Origin: the human T2T-CHM13v2.0 reference genome, Homo sapiens
Length of the DNA stretch: 64,000 nucleotides
Assembly (NCBI GenBank): GCA_009914755.4
Contig: CP068257.2
Span: 7,008,001 to 7,072,000, forward strand
Reading direction: 5' to 3'
Part shown: positions 33,766 through 39,485 of the stretch, piece by piece
Layout: each line of letters starts with the position of its first letter
Position numbering within the stretch: the stretch's first letter is position 1
Made by a program: the position numbers and the translations under genes
The notes under the pieces: model-generated
Told to the model about the DNA's origin: nothing
Seen by the model: only the letters and a program-made list of their open reading frames with translations
Databases searched by the model: none

Positions 33766-34229
33766 ATCAGAGTGAACAGGCAACCTACAGAATGGGAGGA
33801 AATGTTTGCAATCTGTCCATCTGACAAAGGCCTAATATCTAGAATCTACAAGGAACTTTAACAAATTTACAAGAAAAGAACAAACAATCTCATCAAAAAG
33901 TGGGCAAAGGATATGAACAGACACTTCTCAAAAGAATACATTTATGCAGCCAGCAAACATCTGAAAAAAAGCTCATCATCACTGATGATTAGAGAAATGC
34001 AAATCAAAACCACAATGAGATACAATCTCACGCCATTTAGAATGGCAATTGTTAAAAGCTCAGGAAACAACAGATGCTGGAGCAGATGTGGAGAAATAGG
34101 AATGCTTTTACACTGTTGGTGGGAGTGTGAATTAGTTCAACCATTGCGGAAGGCAGTGTGGTGATTCCTCAAGGATCTAGAAACGGAAATACCATTTGAG
34201 CCAGTAATCCCACTACTGGGCATGTACTC
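33766..34229 (+). mobile_element. direct L1 segment (ORF2 C-terminal region), cut off by satellite after about 465 bp
   Basis: 'atcagagtgaacaggcaacctacagaatggga' through 'ccatttgagccagtaatcccactactgggcatgtactc', then (GT)n(AT)n and ATTCC repeats. The A1 copy continues another 490 bp or so to its tail. Confidence 0.85.
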
Positions 34230-34262
34230 GGTGTGTGTGTGTGTACATATATATATATATAT
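34230..34262. repeat. (GT)n(AT)n dinucleotide tract at the L1/satellite junction
   Basis: 'ggtgtgtgtgtgtgtacatatatatatatatatat'. Confidence 0.9.
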
Positions 34263-37200
34263 ATGATTCCATTGCATTCGATTCCATTACATTAGACTCC
34301 ATTCCGTTCAAGTTCATTCCATTCGAGTCCATTCGATTCCAGTGAATTGCATTCGAGTCCATTACATTTGATTCCATTCCATTCCATTCCATTATATTCG
34401 ATTCCATTCCATTCCAATCCATTCCATTCGATTTAATTCCATTCAATTGCATTCCATTCGATTGCATTCCATTCGATTGCATTCTATTCGATTTCATTCC
34501 ATTCGATTGCATTCCATTCGATTGCATTCCATTCGAGTTCATTCCATTCCAGTCCAATCCATTAGAGTCCATTCCATTCCAGTCTACTGTATTCAATTCT
34601 ATTCCATTCCATTCCACTCGATTCCATTCCACTCGATTCCATTCTATTTGATTCTATTCCATTCCATTCCATTGCATTCAATTCTATTCCATTCCATTCG
34701 ATTCCTTTCTTTTTGGGTTCATTCCATTCTAGTCCACTCCATTCCAGTCCACTCCAATCAAATCCATTTCATTCCATTCCAGAAGATTCCATTCCATTCA
34801 AGTCCATTCCAGTCGCTTCCAATCCATTCCATTCAAGAAGATTCCATTCCATTCAAGTCCATTCCAGTCGATTCCATTCCATTCCATTCCATTGCATTCC
34901 ATTCGATTGTATTCCATTCAATTCCATTCCATTAGAATAGATTCCATTCCATTCTATTCCATTCCATTCGATTCATTTCCTTTCGAGTCCATTCCATTCG
35001 AGTCCATTCCAATCAAGTCCATTCCATTCCAGTCCATTCCATTCGATTCCATTCCATTCGATTCTATTCCATTTGATTCCATCCCGTTTGATTCCATTCC
35101 ATTCGATTGCATTCCATTCGAGTCCATCCAATTGAATCCATTCCATTTGCATCCATTCTATTCGAATCCATTCCATTCGTGTCCATTCCATTCCATTCCC
35201 TTTGAGTCCATTCCATTCGATTCCATTCCATTCCAGTCCATTCCATTCGGTTCCATTCCATTCCTTTCCATTCCATTCGATTCCATTCCATTCGATTAGA
35301 TTCCATTCGAGACTGTACTATTACACTCCATTCGATTCCATTCCATTCGATTCCATTCCATTCGATTCCATTCCATTCGATTCCATTCCATTCGATTCCA
35401 TTCCATTGCATTCCATTCCATTCCATTCGTTTCCATTCCATTCAATTCCATTCCTTTCGGTTCAAATCCTTTCCATTCAATTCTATTCCATTCAATTCCA
35501 TTTCATTCGATTCCATTCCTTTCCAGTCCATTCCATTCAAGTCCATATCATTCCAATCCATTCCCTTTGAGTCCATTCCATTCCAGTCCATTCCACTACA
35601 GTTCATTCCATCCCATTGGATTACATTCCATTTGAATGCATACCATTCGATTACATTCCATTCGAGTACATTGAATTCCATTCCATTCCATTCCATACCA
35701 TTCCATTCCATTCGATTGCATTCCATTCAAGTCCATTTCATTTAATTCCATTCCATTCCGGTCGATTACATTCGAGTACAATCCACTCTATTCCATTCCA
35801 TACCATTCCATTCCATTCGAGGCGATTCCTTTCAAGTCCATTGCATTGCAGTCCGTTCCATTTGATTCCATCCCATTTGATTCCATCCCATTCGAGTCCA
35901 TTCCATTCAAGTCCGTACCATTCTATTCCATTGCTTTCCTTTCCTTTCCTTTCCATTCCATTCCATGCAAGTCCATTCCATGCGAGTCCTTTCCATTCCA
36001 GTCCATTCCATTCAATTTCGATTGCATTCCATTCCATTCTAATCCGTTCCATCCGATTGCATGCCATCCGATTGCATGCCATCCGATTTGATCCCATTCT
36101 GTTCTATTCCATTCCATTCGATTCCTCTTCCTTTCGAGTCCATTCCATTCTAGTCCATTCCATTCCAGTCCATTCCATTCGAGTCCATTCCATTCCATTC
36201 TAGTCCATTCCATTCCATTAGATTCCAGTGCATTTTATGCCATTCCACTCGATTCCATTCCATTCCAGTCCAGTCCATTCGATTCCATTCCATTCAAATC
36301 AATTCCATTCCAATCCATTCCATTCCATTCTATTCCATTCCATTAAATTCGAATCCATTCCATTCCATTCTATTCCATTCCATTAAATTTGAATCCATTC
36401 CATTCCATTCCAGTCCATTCCTTTCAAGTCCATTCCATTCCATTCCATTCCGTTTGAATTCATTCCATTCCATTCCATTTGATTTCATTCCATTCCATTC
36501 CATTTGATTCCATTCCATGCCATTCCATTCAATTCAATTCCTTTCCATTCCATTCGATTCCATTCCATTTGATTCTATTCCATTCCATTCCATTCTTTGC
36601 AATTCCATTACATTCGAGTCCAATGCATTCCCTTCCATTCCATTCCTTTCCATTCCAGTCCATTCCAGTCCAGTCCATTCCATTCGGATCCATTCCATTT
36701 CATTCCATTGCTTTGAATTCCATTCCATACCCTTCCAGTCCAGTCCATTCCATTCGAGTCCATTCCATTCGAGTCCATTCCAATTGATTCCCTTTCATTT
36801 GATTCCATTCCATTCGTTTGCATTCCATTCGATTCCATTCAATTAGATTCCATTCCAGTCGTTTCCATTCCATTCGAGTCCATTCCATTCAAGTCCATTC
36901 CATTCCAATCCATTACCTTCGAGTCTATTCCATTCCATTCTATTCCATTCCATTCAATTCCATTCCTTTCGATTCCATTCCATTTGAGTCCATTCCATTC
37001 CTGTCCATTCCATTCAATTCCATTTCATTCCAGTCCATTCCATTCCTTTCCATTCCATTCCATTCAAGTCCATTCCATTCCATTGCATTCAATTCCATTC
37101 CATTCCATTTGATTCCATGCCATTCCAGTCCATTCCTTTTGAGTCCATTCCATTCCATTCCTTTCGAATCCATTCCATTCCATTCCATGTCATTCCATTC

Positions 37201-38000
37201 CATTGTATTCCATTCCATTCCATTCCCTTCGAATCCATTCCATTCCATTCCGTTTCCTTCCATTTGATTCCATAACATTTGATTCGATTCAATTCCTTTC
37301 CATTCCAATCCATTCCATTCCATTCCATTAAATTCTATTCCATTCCATTTGATTCCATTTCACTCGAGTCCATTCCATTCAAGTCCATTCCATTCCAGGT
37401 CATTTCATTCGAGTCCGTTCCATTCCATTCCATTCCATTCCTTTTGGGACCATTCCATTACTGTCCATTCCATTTGAATCCATTCCATTCCAGTCCATTA
37501 CATTTGATTCCATTCCATTCGATTGCTTTCCATTCCAGTCCATTCCATTTGAGTCCATTCTATTTCCATTCCTTTTGATTCCATTCCATTCCATTCGAGT
37601 CCATTCCATTCCACTCGATTGCAGTCCATTCGAGACCGTTCCATTCCGATCCATTCAATTCTAGTCCATTCCATTCGATTACTTTTCATTAGATTCCATT
37701 TCATTTGATTCCATTCCATTCGAGTCCATTCCATTCCATTCCATTCGATTCCATTCCATTCGATTGCCTTCCATTCCAGTCCATTCCATTTGAGTCCATT
37801 CCATTTCCATTCCTTTTGATTCCATTCCATTCCATTCGAGTCCATTCCATTCCACTCGATTGCAGTCCATTCGAGACCGTTCCATTCCAATCCATTCAAT
37901 TCGAGTCCATTCCATTCGATTACATTTCATTAGATTCCATTTCATTTGATTCCATTCCATTCGAGTCCATTCCATTCCATTCCATTCCATTCGAATCCAT
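34263..38000. repeat. HSat3-type (HSat2/3 superfamily) pentameric satellite. It reads (ATTCC)n on the plus strand, which is (GGAAT)n on the minus strand.
   Basis: Several kb of 'attccattccattcgattcc / cattcgagtccattcc'. It contains a local about 241-bp higher-order duplication (37480-37720 and 37720-37960). Overlapping stop-free ORFs such as MEWNGMEWNG and HSIPFHSI in the track are repeat artefacts. Confidence 0.9.
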
Positions 38001-39485
38001 TCTATTCCATTCCATTCCATTCCATAACACTCTGTTCCACTTTACTCCACTCACTACATTAAATTCCATTATATCCAATTCCATTCCACTCCGTTCCACT
38101 CCTCTCCTCTCCACTGCACTCCACTGCACTCCATTCCACTCCATCCCATTCCATTCTGCTCCATTCCACTGCAATCCACTCCACCCCACTCATCTCCACT
38201 TCATTCCATTCCATTCCATCCCATTCCATTCCTCTCCATTCCAGTCCACTCTACTTCACCTCACTCCACTCCACTCTAGTCCACTCCATTCCATTCCATT
38301 CGATTCCACTGCATTCCACGCTATTCCTTTCTTTCAAAAGTATCTCACTCTGTCACCCTGCCTGCAGCACAGTGGCACAATCTCAGCTCACATTTCATTT
38401 CACCATTCCATTCCATTCCACTCCACTCTACTCCACTCCACTCCAATCCATTCCACTCCACTCCTTTCCATTCCATCCCATTCCATTCCACTCCTTTCCA
38501 CTCCACTCCACTCCATTCCATTCCATTCCACTGCATTCCATTCCACTTTACTCCAGTCCACTCCACTCCGTTTCATTCCACTGCATTACATTCCACTCTT
38601 TTCCATTCCATTCCATTTCATTCCACTCCATTCCATTCTACTCCCCTCCACTCCTCTCCACCACATTCCACTCCACTCCACTCCACTCCATTCCATTCCC
38701 TTCCATTACATTCCATTCCATTGCATTCCACTCCACTCCACTCCATTCCTCTCCATTCCATTCCACTCCATTCCATTCCACTCCACTCCATTCCATTCCA
38801 TTGCATTCCACTCCACTCTGCTCCACTCCACTCCACTTCACTCCACTCCATTTCATTCCATTCCACTTCACTCCATTGCATTCCATTCCTTTCTTTCGAC
38901 AGGATATCACTGTGTCACCCAGGCTGGAGTGCAGTGGCACAATCTCTGCTCACATTACATGTCAACTTTCCATTTCATTGCATTATATTCCATTGCATTC
39001 TATTGAATTCCATTGCATTCCATTGCATTCCATTGTATTCCATTCCATTCCGTTCCACTCCACTCCACTACATTCTATAACATCCGATTACATTCCACTC
39101 CTCTCCACTCCACTGCTCTCCCCACCACTCCATTCCACTCCATCCCATTCCATTCCACTCCATTCCACTGGACTCCGCTCCACCCCACTCCACTCCACTT
39201 CATTCCATTCCTTTCTATCCCATTCCATTCCTCTCCATTCCACTCCACTCCACTTCACTCCACTCCACTCCAGTCCACTCCATTCCATTCCACTGCATTC
39301 CATTCCTTTCCTTTCTTTTGAGAGTATCTCACTCCATCACCCAGCCTGGAGAGCAGTGGCACAATCTCAGCTGACATTTCATTTCACCATTCAATTCCAA
39401 TCCATTCAGTTCCATTCCGCTCCACTCCACTCCACTGCAATCCATTCCACTCCACTCCATTCCATTCCACTCCACTCCTTTCCAA
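38001..39485. repeat. divergent HSat3-like subdomain (CCACT/CCATT pentamers) carrying three copies of an Alu-derived segment of about 55-75 bp
   Basis: Pentamer shifts to 'ccactccactccattccattcc'. Alu fragments 'tctcactctgtcaccc.gcctg.ag.acagtggcacaatctc.gctcacat' at about 38327-38405, 38884-38985 and 39303-39395, spaced about 557 and 419 bp apart. Confidence 0.75.

What the first reader, a model, noticed from the sequence alone, without database searches (positions are those of the whole stretch)
38001..39485. HSat3 subdomain with a changed pentamer (CCACT/CCATT) and an Alu-derived fragment amplified as part of the satellite repeat
After about 3.7 kb of ATTCC repeats the array switches to 'ccactccactccattccattcc'. 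Three times, at about 38327, 38884 and 39303, it contains the same 55-75-bp piece of an Alu 5' end in reverse orientation ('tctcactctgtcaccc.gcctg.ag.acagtggcacaatctc.gctcacat'), each preceded by 'ttcctttctttc'. Spacing of 557 and 419 bp implies the Alu piece was captured once and then multiplied with the surrounding satellite as a higher-order unit. This is a useful subfamily or chromosome-specific marker and possibly an undescribed HSat3 variant.
Basis: seen in the sequence. Interest (0 to 1): 0.55.

Follow-up and report, generated by a model that had tools for sequence, protein, structure and literature searches.

The report
Known Alu-tagged satellite III block
This is an ordinary, already-annotated piece of human satellite III DNA, most likely on the short arm of chromosome 21, of the known type that mixes GGAAT and GGAGT pentamers and carries a short Alu tail-end fragment copied many times genome-wide.

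Summary
The sequence features are real. At about 38020 a 3.75-kb (ATTCC)n array changes to a 1.46-kb ATTCC/ACTCC mix. This mix holds three copies of one Alu-derived piece, all in the same orientation with identical borders.

The piece is the 3' end of Alu (last ~56 nt plus a decayed A-tail), not the 5' end.

The block is not a local higher-order repeat and not a new variant:
- The same Alu/satellite junction occurs in at least 120 public metagenome contigs (human-type DNA; 731 copies in 344 kb, 730 on one strand, median spacing ~350 bp).
- Each window copy has closer relatives there (85-95% over 380 bp) than inside the window (76-80%).
- The whole block is a ~6%-diverged, partly deleted paralogue of an ordered stretch elsewhere.

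GGAAT/GGAGT satellite III on acrocentric arms, and HSat3 intermingled with Alu fragments on acrocentrics and Y, are both published. The array sizes (5,220 bp HSat3 abutting ~4,750 bp beta satellite) match CHM13 chr21 hsat3_21_7(A2) plus bsat_21_8 (5,225 and 4,746 bp).

Single capture and co-amplification of the Alu piece is supported, but genome-wide and long ago. Interest is low.

The parts
34266..38020 (.). ATTCC-type HSat3 domain (GGAAT on the minus strand), rich in ATTCG/AGTCC variants; A2/A1-like
   Evidence: TRF period 5. Pentamer classes. The published A2 and A1 24-mers give the most near-matches here. The CHM13 label for the matching array is A2. No CGGGTTG motif.
38021..39480 (.). Mixed ATTCC/ACTCC (GGAAT/GGAGT) HSat3 subdomain carrying the Alu pieces; this is the finding
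   Evidence: ACTCC class appears at 38001 onward. GC rises from 0.40 to 0.47. Same composition as 120 junction-bearing contigs. 93.8% identical to L048/L039 over 1612 aligned columns, against ~86% background.
38327..38404 (-). Alu 3'-end piece 1: tail remnant, ~56 nt of Alu, then ATTTCATTTCACC
   Evidence: nhmmer 71.8 bits. Aligns to Alu positions ~224-276. 89.7% identical to the family consensus.
38888..38965 (-). Alu 3'-end piece 2
   Evidence: nhmmer 84.3 bits. 93.5% identical to the consensus; 97.4% to copies in L080, L074, L031 and L023.
39310..39388 (-). Alu 3'-end piece 3
   Evidence: nhmmer 77.4 bits. 79/79 identical to L016_994. Its 529-bp surroundings are 95% identical to L016.
39467..39480 (-). 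Possible start of a fourth Alu piece (CCTTTCC AAGAGTC) cut off by beta satellite; speculative
   Evidence: Read from the sequence. In paralogous contigs L004/L048/L056/L070 the HSat3-to-beta-satellite junction also lies inside an Alu piece, at profile position 47.
39481..44233 (-). Beta satellite array, 68-69 bp unit, about 69 copies (context)
   Evidence: TRF. Its consensus is the reverse complement of the published 68-bp beta satellite consensus. Its length matches bsat_21_8.
44234..47850 (+). 5'-truncated L1 abutting the beta satellite (context)
   Evidence: ORFs resemble L1 ORF2. Pfam RVT_1 E = 5e-26.
37528..38010 (.). Two ~241-bp units 98% identical: a recent local tandem duplication in the ATTCC domain
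   Evidence: Offset scan; visible in the sequence.

Best explanation
The block is a small relic of a known, abundant kind of human satellite III (HSat3): pentamer arrays that mix GGAAT with GGAGT and are punctuated every ~150-1400 bp by one particular Alu fragment.

Proposed history:
1. Once, long ago, an Alu sat in such an array, sense on the GGAAT strand.
2. All but its last ~56 nt and a GAAA-type tail was lost.
3. The resulting landmark of ~64-77 nt was then copied passively. The processes were those that expand and move satellite DNA: unequal exchange, conversion and segmental duplication between acrocentric short arms.

The window holds a 1.46-kb sample with three units and perhaps the stub of a fourth. 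It lies between an A2-type ATTCC array and a beta satellite array. This is most likely the chr21 short-arm island annotated in CHM13 as hsat3_21_7(A2)/bsat_21_8. The sample was inherited as an already-diverged stretch and then lost some units. It was not amplified in place.

No function is implied; it is structural heterochromatin.

Shown: single origin of the piece, family-wide distribution, paralogy to other loci, identity of the neighbours. Inferred: the order of events, the mechanism of spread, and the chromosome assignment (from array sizes only).
For: - Same two borders and same strand in the three window copies and in hundreds of copies elsewhere.
- Alu homology stops exactly at GCTCAC.
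- 60% of spacings equal 2 mod 5, as expected for a fixed insert of 67-77 nt in a pentamer lattice. The window's spacings of 562 and 422 fit this.
- Window units are closer to units on other contigs than to each other.
- Unique 16-mers are collinear between the window (35116-39388) and L048/L099, running from the ATTCC domain through the ACTCC/Alu domain. L048, like the window, then continues into beta satellite, where its 16-mer matches are no longer collinear.
- Identity to L048/L039 is 93.8%, against ~86% family background.
- Literature: satellite III is built of GGAAT and GGAGT motifs on acrocentric short arms (PMC6862356; PMC7767330).
- The ACTCC satellite is found on chr13, 14, 15, 21 and 22, and is also enriched on Y (PMC11305138).
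- HSat3 often includes fragments of ancient transposable elements in its repeating units (10.1101/2021.07.12.452052).
- HSat3 blocks are intermingled with Alu fragments on Y and acrocentrics without local homogenisation (10.1101/2022.12.01.518724).
- The cenSat table has chr21 HSat3 of 5225 bp directly followed by beta satellite of 4746 bp. The window has 5220 and ~4750 bp.
Against: - The contigs used as 'elsewhere' are metagenome assemblies. I take them to be human contamination; they are short-read assemblies of repeats and may be collapsed or chimeric.
- They were selected by the junction itself, so they cannot show how much ACTCC-rich HSat3 lacks the Alu piece.
- The chromosome assignment rests on two array lengths. 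Parts 1, 4, 5 and 8 of the table were not read (chr1, chr10-12, chr13 below 11.14 Mb, chr17-19, chr2, chr5 onward).
- The subfamily of the ACTCC/Alu part could not be assigned: the one published 24-mer per subfamily does not discriminate.
- CHM13 labels the whole array A2, not A4.
Confidence: 0.85

Rival explanations
1. Local higher-order repeat: the Alu piece was captured in this block, and the block grew here by tandem duplication of a unit of about 0.4-1 kb.
For: - The best self-offset in the block is 976-999 bp, 89% identity over 200 bp.
- Blocks 38001-38470 and 38999-39464 align at 80%.
- Pieces 1 and 3 share GTATC where the consensus has GGATC.
Against: - With Alu-anchored 380-bp units, A-C is 79.8%. 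That is only about the 95th percentile of random inter-contig pairs (73.7 +/- 4.0%). A-B and B-C are 76.5%.
- Every unit has a closer relative outside the window.
- The order A...B...C with the same flanking 16-mers exists in L048/L039/L099, so the arrangement predates this locus.
Confidence: 0.07
2. Alu-tail origin: the pentamer repeat of this subfamily grew out of the A-rich tail of the Alu, as pathogenic pentanucleotide expansions do. On this reading the Alu was not inserted into a pre-existing array.
For: - On the GGAAT strand the piece reads Alu 3' end, then GAAAGAAAGG, then AATGGAATGG.
Against: - Pentamers flank both sides of a 5'-truncated piece.
- The pentamers are ordinary HSat3-type ATTCC, continuous with a 3.75-kb ATTCC array.
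- Both published accounts treat the Alu as a fragment embedded in HSat3.
- In a tandem array the two histories give the same structure, so this reading is not strictly excluded.
Confidence: 0.05
3. Three independent Alu insertions into the satellite.
For: Alus are dense in this window.
Against: - All three have an identical internal breakpoint, identical tail remnant and the same orientation. The same holds for 635-731 copies elsewhere.
- Independent insertions would not share a 5' truncation point and the same flanks.
Confidence: 0.01

Closest known systems
HSat3 arrays intermingled with Alu fragments on chrY and acrocentric short arms (T2T-Y paper, 10.1101/2022.12.01.518724)
   Same: Alu fragments embedded in HSat3. 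Copies are not locally homogenised: window copies are 83-87% identical to each other and have nearer relatives elsewhere. Likely acrocentric location.
   Different: That paper speaks of Alu fragments 'including AluY'. The 56-nt piece here is too short to assign a subfamily, and its end (GATCCTGTC) looks like the GACCCTGTC of some older Alus in the window. The paper's text does not give the shared breakpoints, the uniform strand or the spacing of 2 mod 5 that I find.
Acrocentric satellite III subfamilies built from GGAAT and GGAGT (pTRS-47, pTRS-63, pE-, pK-, pR-, pW- clones; Bandyopadhyay 2001, as cited in PMC6862356 and by Altemose 2021); HSat3A4 = pTRS-47 family (PMC4022460)
   Same: The same two pentamers in comparable proportions. 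HSat3A4 arrays abut beta satellite on all five acrocentrics, and 'A2,A4' mixed arrays are common. This mirrors the window order of A2-like, then ACTCC/Alu, then beta satellite.
   Different: No clone sequence was available, so identity is untested. The published A4 24-mer is almost absent: 0 in the window and 1 in 344 kb of contigs. No 1366-bp period is visible in the 1.46-kb block. CHM13 labels this array A2.
ACTCC / AATGGAATGGAGTGG simple satellites (k-Seek study, PMC11305138)
   Same: The same variant pentamer, localised by that study to chr13, 14, 15, 21 and 22 and also reported as enriched on Y.
   Different: That study counts pure tandem runs in short reads. Here ACTCC is interleaved with ATTCC and the Alu piece.
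HSat1B / DYZ2 (2.47-kb unit with one Alu per repeat)
   Same: A satellite whose repeating structure carries an Alu-derived part.
   Different: HSat1B is a fixed 2.5-kb composite with an extremely AT-rich part. Here there is no AT-rich part (GC 0.47), only 56 nt of Alu, and variable spacing.

Membership tests
Human satellite 3 (HSat3) | Tandem array derived from the pentamer ATTCC/GGAAT | tested here: met
   TRF period 5, about 1007 copies at 34266-39315. ATTCC is the top pentamer class throughout, apart from the last 250-bp bin where ACTCC slightly leads.
Human satellite 3 (HSat3) | Occasional interspersed 10-bp ...TCGGGTTG motif (Table S2 of 10.1101/2021.07.12.452052) | tested here: not met
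   0 matches to CAACCCGART, its reverse complement or the 7-mer core in 34266-39485. The motif is described as occasional. The published 24-mers that contain it belong to B subfamilies, so its absence fits an A-type array rather than excluding HSat3.
Human satellite 3 (HSat3) | Pericentromeric or acrocentric short-arm location, annotated as hsat3 in CHM13 | tested here: met
   Sizes of the HSat3 array and the abutting beta satellite array (5220 / ~4750 bp) match chr21 hsat3_21_7(A2) 5225 bp plus bsat_21_8 4746 bp. No other such pair occurs in the rows read. This is a match by size only, not by sequence.
GGAAT/GGAGT acrocentric satellite III subfamilies (incl. pTRS-47 / HSat3A4) | Built from the two motifs GGAAT and GGAGT | tested here: met
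   ATTCC 46-85 and ACTCC 49-79 per 250 bp from 38001 to 39500.
GGAAT/GGAGT acrocentric satellite III subfamilies (incl. pTRS-47 / HSat3A4) | Sequence identity to a named clone, or subfamily-specific 24-mers | tested here: inconclusive
Only one 24-mer per subfamily is published in the text. The A4 24-mer occurs 0 times in the window and once in 344 kb of contigs, and near-matches do not discriminate A2, A4 and B5.
GGAAT/GGAGT acrocentric satellite III subfamilies (incl. pTRS-47 / HSat3A4) | 1366-bp repeat unit (pTRS-47, PMC4022460) | tested here: inconclusive
   The block is only 1.46 kb. Its best internal offset is 976-999 bp. In L048/L039 the corresponding units lie 1510 bp apart.
HSat3-associated Alu fragments (T2T-Y paper) | Alu fragments intermingled with HSat3 blocks, not locally homogenised | tested here: met
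   Three pieces within 1.1 kb. They are 83-87% identical to each other, with closer copies on other contigs.
HSat3-associated Alu fragments (T2T-Y paper) | Alu subfamily AluY | tested here: inconclusive
   Only 56 nt of the Alu 3' end are present, and no subfamily library was available. The piece matches a consensus of 15 mixed in-window Alus almost perfectly.
HSat1B / DYZ2 composite satellite | About 2.5-kb unit with an Alu subunit plus a region more than 85% AT | tested here: not met
   GC is 0.47 across the block. No AT-rich part is visible in the sequence. Spacing is 422-562 bp.
Higher-order repeat in the alpha-satellite sense | A multi-unit block repeated in tandem with much higher identity between blocks than between units | tested here: not met
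   Unit pairs are 76-80% identical, against a family background of 74 +/- 4%. The block spans at most 1.5 copies of any candidate period.

The most novel reading that the evidence does not exclude
The Alu-tagged, GGAGT-rich HSat3 seen here and in at least 120 contigs could be a sequence class that the 14-subfamily HSat2,3 scheme does not label separately. In CHM13 this block is lumped under A2, and none of the flagship 24-mers marks it. Its junction k-mers (for example GGCACAATCTCNGCTNACATT) would then be a clean marker for it. In addition, the HSat3-to-beta-satellite joins in the paralogous contigs fall inside an Alu piece, and the window's join may do so too. This could mean the piece mediated those joins.
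Probability: 0.1. Interest if true: 0.3.

Novelty: already known. Interest (0 to 1): 0.1.

Why it matters
It matters little beyond bookkeeping. The finding corrects a mislabel (the piece is the Alu 3' end, not the 5' end). It also shows that an apparently local oddity is a sample of a genome-wide, published class of acrocentric satellite III.

The conserved Alu/satellite junction is a convenient landmark. It could be used to count or phase this class of HSat3 in long reads and to recognise human satellite contamination in metagenome assemblies. It does not open a new question.

Tried and rejected
- Rfam scan of the whole window at E <= 1: it finds many Alus as partial SRP hits, but nothing inside 34266-44233, because the pieces are too short.
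- The repeat finder on the block: swamped by pentamer self-similarity and uninformative.
- Junction scan of bacterial/archaeal genomes: 3 hits. Chance gives about 4 (my own estimate: 596 Gb, both strands, 19 specified bases). All three lack the satellite's composition, and the one match I read lies in ordinary non-satellite sequence. No human contamination was recovered there.
- Plain blastn of the block against the contigs: 73-78% everywhere, which is pentamer background. Paralogy showed only with unique 16-mers and long-gap global alignment plus a background control.
- Subfamily assignment with the published 24-mers, exact and with 1-3 substitutions: supports A2/A1 for the ATTCC domain only.
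- Primary papers not held: Jarmuz 2007 and the Science version of Altemose 2022 were looked up and are not in the library. Bandyopadhyay 2001 is known to me only through citations; I did not look it up.
- A claim that the master copy had lost its CpGs before amplification was dropped. The in-window Alu consensus used as reference is itself CpG-decayed.
- SVA-derived Alu-like region: considered and set aside, because the piece carries a GAAA-type A-tail remnant rather than a CCCTCT hexamer.

Full report
**What is in the sequence.** The window is human-type DNA. It holds many full-length Alus (paired Metazoa_SRP hits) and L1 fragments.

- TRF reports one pentamer array from 34266 to 39484.
- Directly after it comes a 68-69-bp tandem array to 44233.
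- Counting pentamers by rotation class shows ATTCC with ATTCG/AGTCC variants up to about 38020.
- From there to the end, ATTCC and ACTCC occur in roughly equal amounts, and GC rises from 0.40 to 0.47.

The pentamer switch after ~3.7 kb is therefore real.

**The three Alu pieces.** A profile built from the piece finds three full-length matches in the block: 38327-38404, 38888-38965 and 39310-39388 (E = 1e-20 to 1e-24). The junction pattern GGCACAATCTCNGCTNACATT occurs exactly at these three places, with none expected by chance.

- All three are antisense on the + strand.
- All three are preceded by CCTTTCTTTC-type sequence.
- All three end at GCTCAC followed by ATT.

- Aligned to five full Alus from the same window, it covers their last ~60 nt plus the tail.
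- A consensus of 15 in-window Alu 3' ends matches it up to GCTCAC. There Alu continues TGCAACC and the satellite continues ATTTCATTTCACC.
- 'ttcctttctttc' is the reverse complement of a GAAA-type decayed A-tail. Alu 50683 in this window has such a tail.

So the piece is the Alu 3' end, about 56 nt plus 8-10 nt of tail.

**Is it local?** No.

Almost all have the block's composition, with ATTCC about 0.27 and ACTCC about 0.20 of positions. I take them to be human DNA in microbiome assemblies; some also hold beta satellite and L1-like sequence.

In these 344 kb:

- The profile finds 731 copies, 730 on the same strand, spaced 144-1373 bp apart with a median of 351.
- 60% of spacings equal 2 mod 5, as expected for a fixed non-pentamer insert in a pentamer lattice. 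The window's 562 and 422 fit this.
- Both borders are conserved in a 176-sequence alignment.
- BLAST with an in-window Alu gives 635 hits, all starting at Alu positions 220-249.

This is one truncated fragment that spread with the satellite. It rules out independent insertions.

**Is there a higher-order unit in the block?** Only weakly.

- The best self-offset is 976-999 bp, and blocks 1 and 3 align at 80%.
- For Alu-anchored 380-bp units, the window pairs are 76.4-79.8% identical. Random pairs from different contigs give 73.7 +/- 4.0%.
- Each window unit has a better partner elsewhere, 85-95%. Piece 3 is 79/79 identical to a copy in L016, whose surrounding 529 bp are 95% identical.

Evidence that the arrangement predates this locus:

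- Unique 16-mers are collinear between the window (35116-39388) and contigs L048/L099, running from the ATTCC domain through the ACTCC/Alu domain. L048, like the window, then runs into beta satellite, where its 16-mer matches are no longer collinear.
- A long-gap global alignment gives 93.8% identity to L048/L039 over 1612 columns. The family background under the same scoring is ~86%.
- Relative to L048 the window lacks about 365 bp near 38840-38867 and about 700 bp after 39388, each containing Alu units.

The block is therefore a diverged, partly deleted paralogue of an ordered stretch found elsewhere. It was not amplified in place.

**Surroundings and location.**

- The 68-bp array's consensus is the reverse complement of the published beta satellite consensus.
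- It is followed at 44234 by a 5'-truncated L1.
- The HSat3 array is preceded by another L1 fragment and a short (GT)n(AT)n run.
- In the CHM13 cenSat table, chr21 7779275-7784500 is hsat3_21_7(A2), 5225 bp. It is directly followed by bsat_21_8, 4746 bp, with transition sequence on both sides.
- The window has 5220 bp of HSat3 and ~4750 bp of beta satellite in the same order.
- No other pair of these sizes occurs in the rows I read: chr13 from 11.14 Mb, chr14, chr15, chr21, chr22, chr3, and parts of chr16, chr20 and chr4.

This is a match by size, not by sequence, but it is specific. The A2 label agrees with my 24-mer near-matches for the ATTCC domain. The ACTCC/Alu part is not labelled separately.

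**What is already known.**

- Reviews and a cytogenetic paper state that acrocentric satellite III is built from GGAAT and GGAGT in varying proportions. They give named subfamilies such as pTRS-47, pTRS-63, pE, pK, pR and pW.
- A 2024 k-mer study places ACTCC on chr13, 14, 15, 21 and 22 and also reports enrichment on Y.
- The CHM13 centromere paper says HSat3 often includes fragments of ancient transposable elements in its repeating units, citing Bandyopadhyay 2001.
- The T2T-Y paper says some HSat3 arrays are intermingled with Alu fragments on Y and the acrocentrics. It reports no local homogenisation and no clustering by chromosome.

Both halves of the finding are thus published, and the 'chromosome-specific marker' idea is contradicted.

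**Which subfamily?** Unresolved.

HSat3A4 (the pTRS-47 family) is a lead. A4 arrays abut beta satellite on all five acrocentrics, and 'A2,A4' arrays are common. However, the single published A4 24-mer is nearly absent from the contigs, and I had no clone sequence.

**Mechanism.** This is passive co-amplification of a captured transposon fragment within satellite DNA, followed by duplication of a stretch to this island and loss of some units.

The single origin and the paralogy are shown. The order of events and the processes involved (unequal exchange, conversion, inter-acrocentric duplication) are inferred from general knowledge of satellites.

A rival in which the pentamers grew from the Alu tail cannot be strictly excluded from structure alone, but it is unparsimonious.

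**Verdict.** This is ordinary, already described and already annotated.

Noticed in passing
window 37528-38010: Two ~241-bp units of the ATTCC domain are 98% identical. This is a recent local tandem duplication, far more similar than anything in the ACTCC/Alu block.
   Followed up: partly
window 39467-39481; L004 ~1040-1090, L048 ~4380-4430, L056 1772-1818, L070 ~480-530: In four contigs the HSat3-to-beta-satellite join lies inside an Alu piece (GGCTGTAGTGCAG|GTGATGAGACT, profile position 47). In the window the last bases before beta satellite (CCTTTCC AAGAGTC) look like the first bases of a fourth piece. The two joins differ in position.
   Followed up: partly
window 34100-34265 and 44234-47850: The 10-kb satellite island (HSat3 plus beta satellite) is bracketed by two different L1 fragments, both in + orientation. 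They overlap in L1 ORF2 coordinates, so they are not halves of one element. A (GT)n(AT)n run lies at 34232-34265.
   Followed up: partly
L062 3-519, L089 2-104 and 4670-5014: Two contigs join Alu-tagged HSat3 to sequence 86-91% identical to window 45404-45752 and 47327-47848 (the L1 next to the beta satellite). This may be just L1 similarity, or it may hint at a shared duplicated segment.
   Followed up: no
L009, L118 (metagenome contigs): Two junction-pattern hits lie in contigs with almost no pentamer content. They are presumably chance matches or ordinary Alus and were excluded from conclusions.
   Followed up: no
window 38391-38404, 38953-38965, 39376-39388: Next to the Alu breakpoint the family consensus reads ATTTC ATTTC ACC before ATTCC resumes, so ATTTC variant pentamers sit at a fixed position. 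Copy 2 in the window has diverged here (ATTACATGTCAAC).
   Followed up: no
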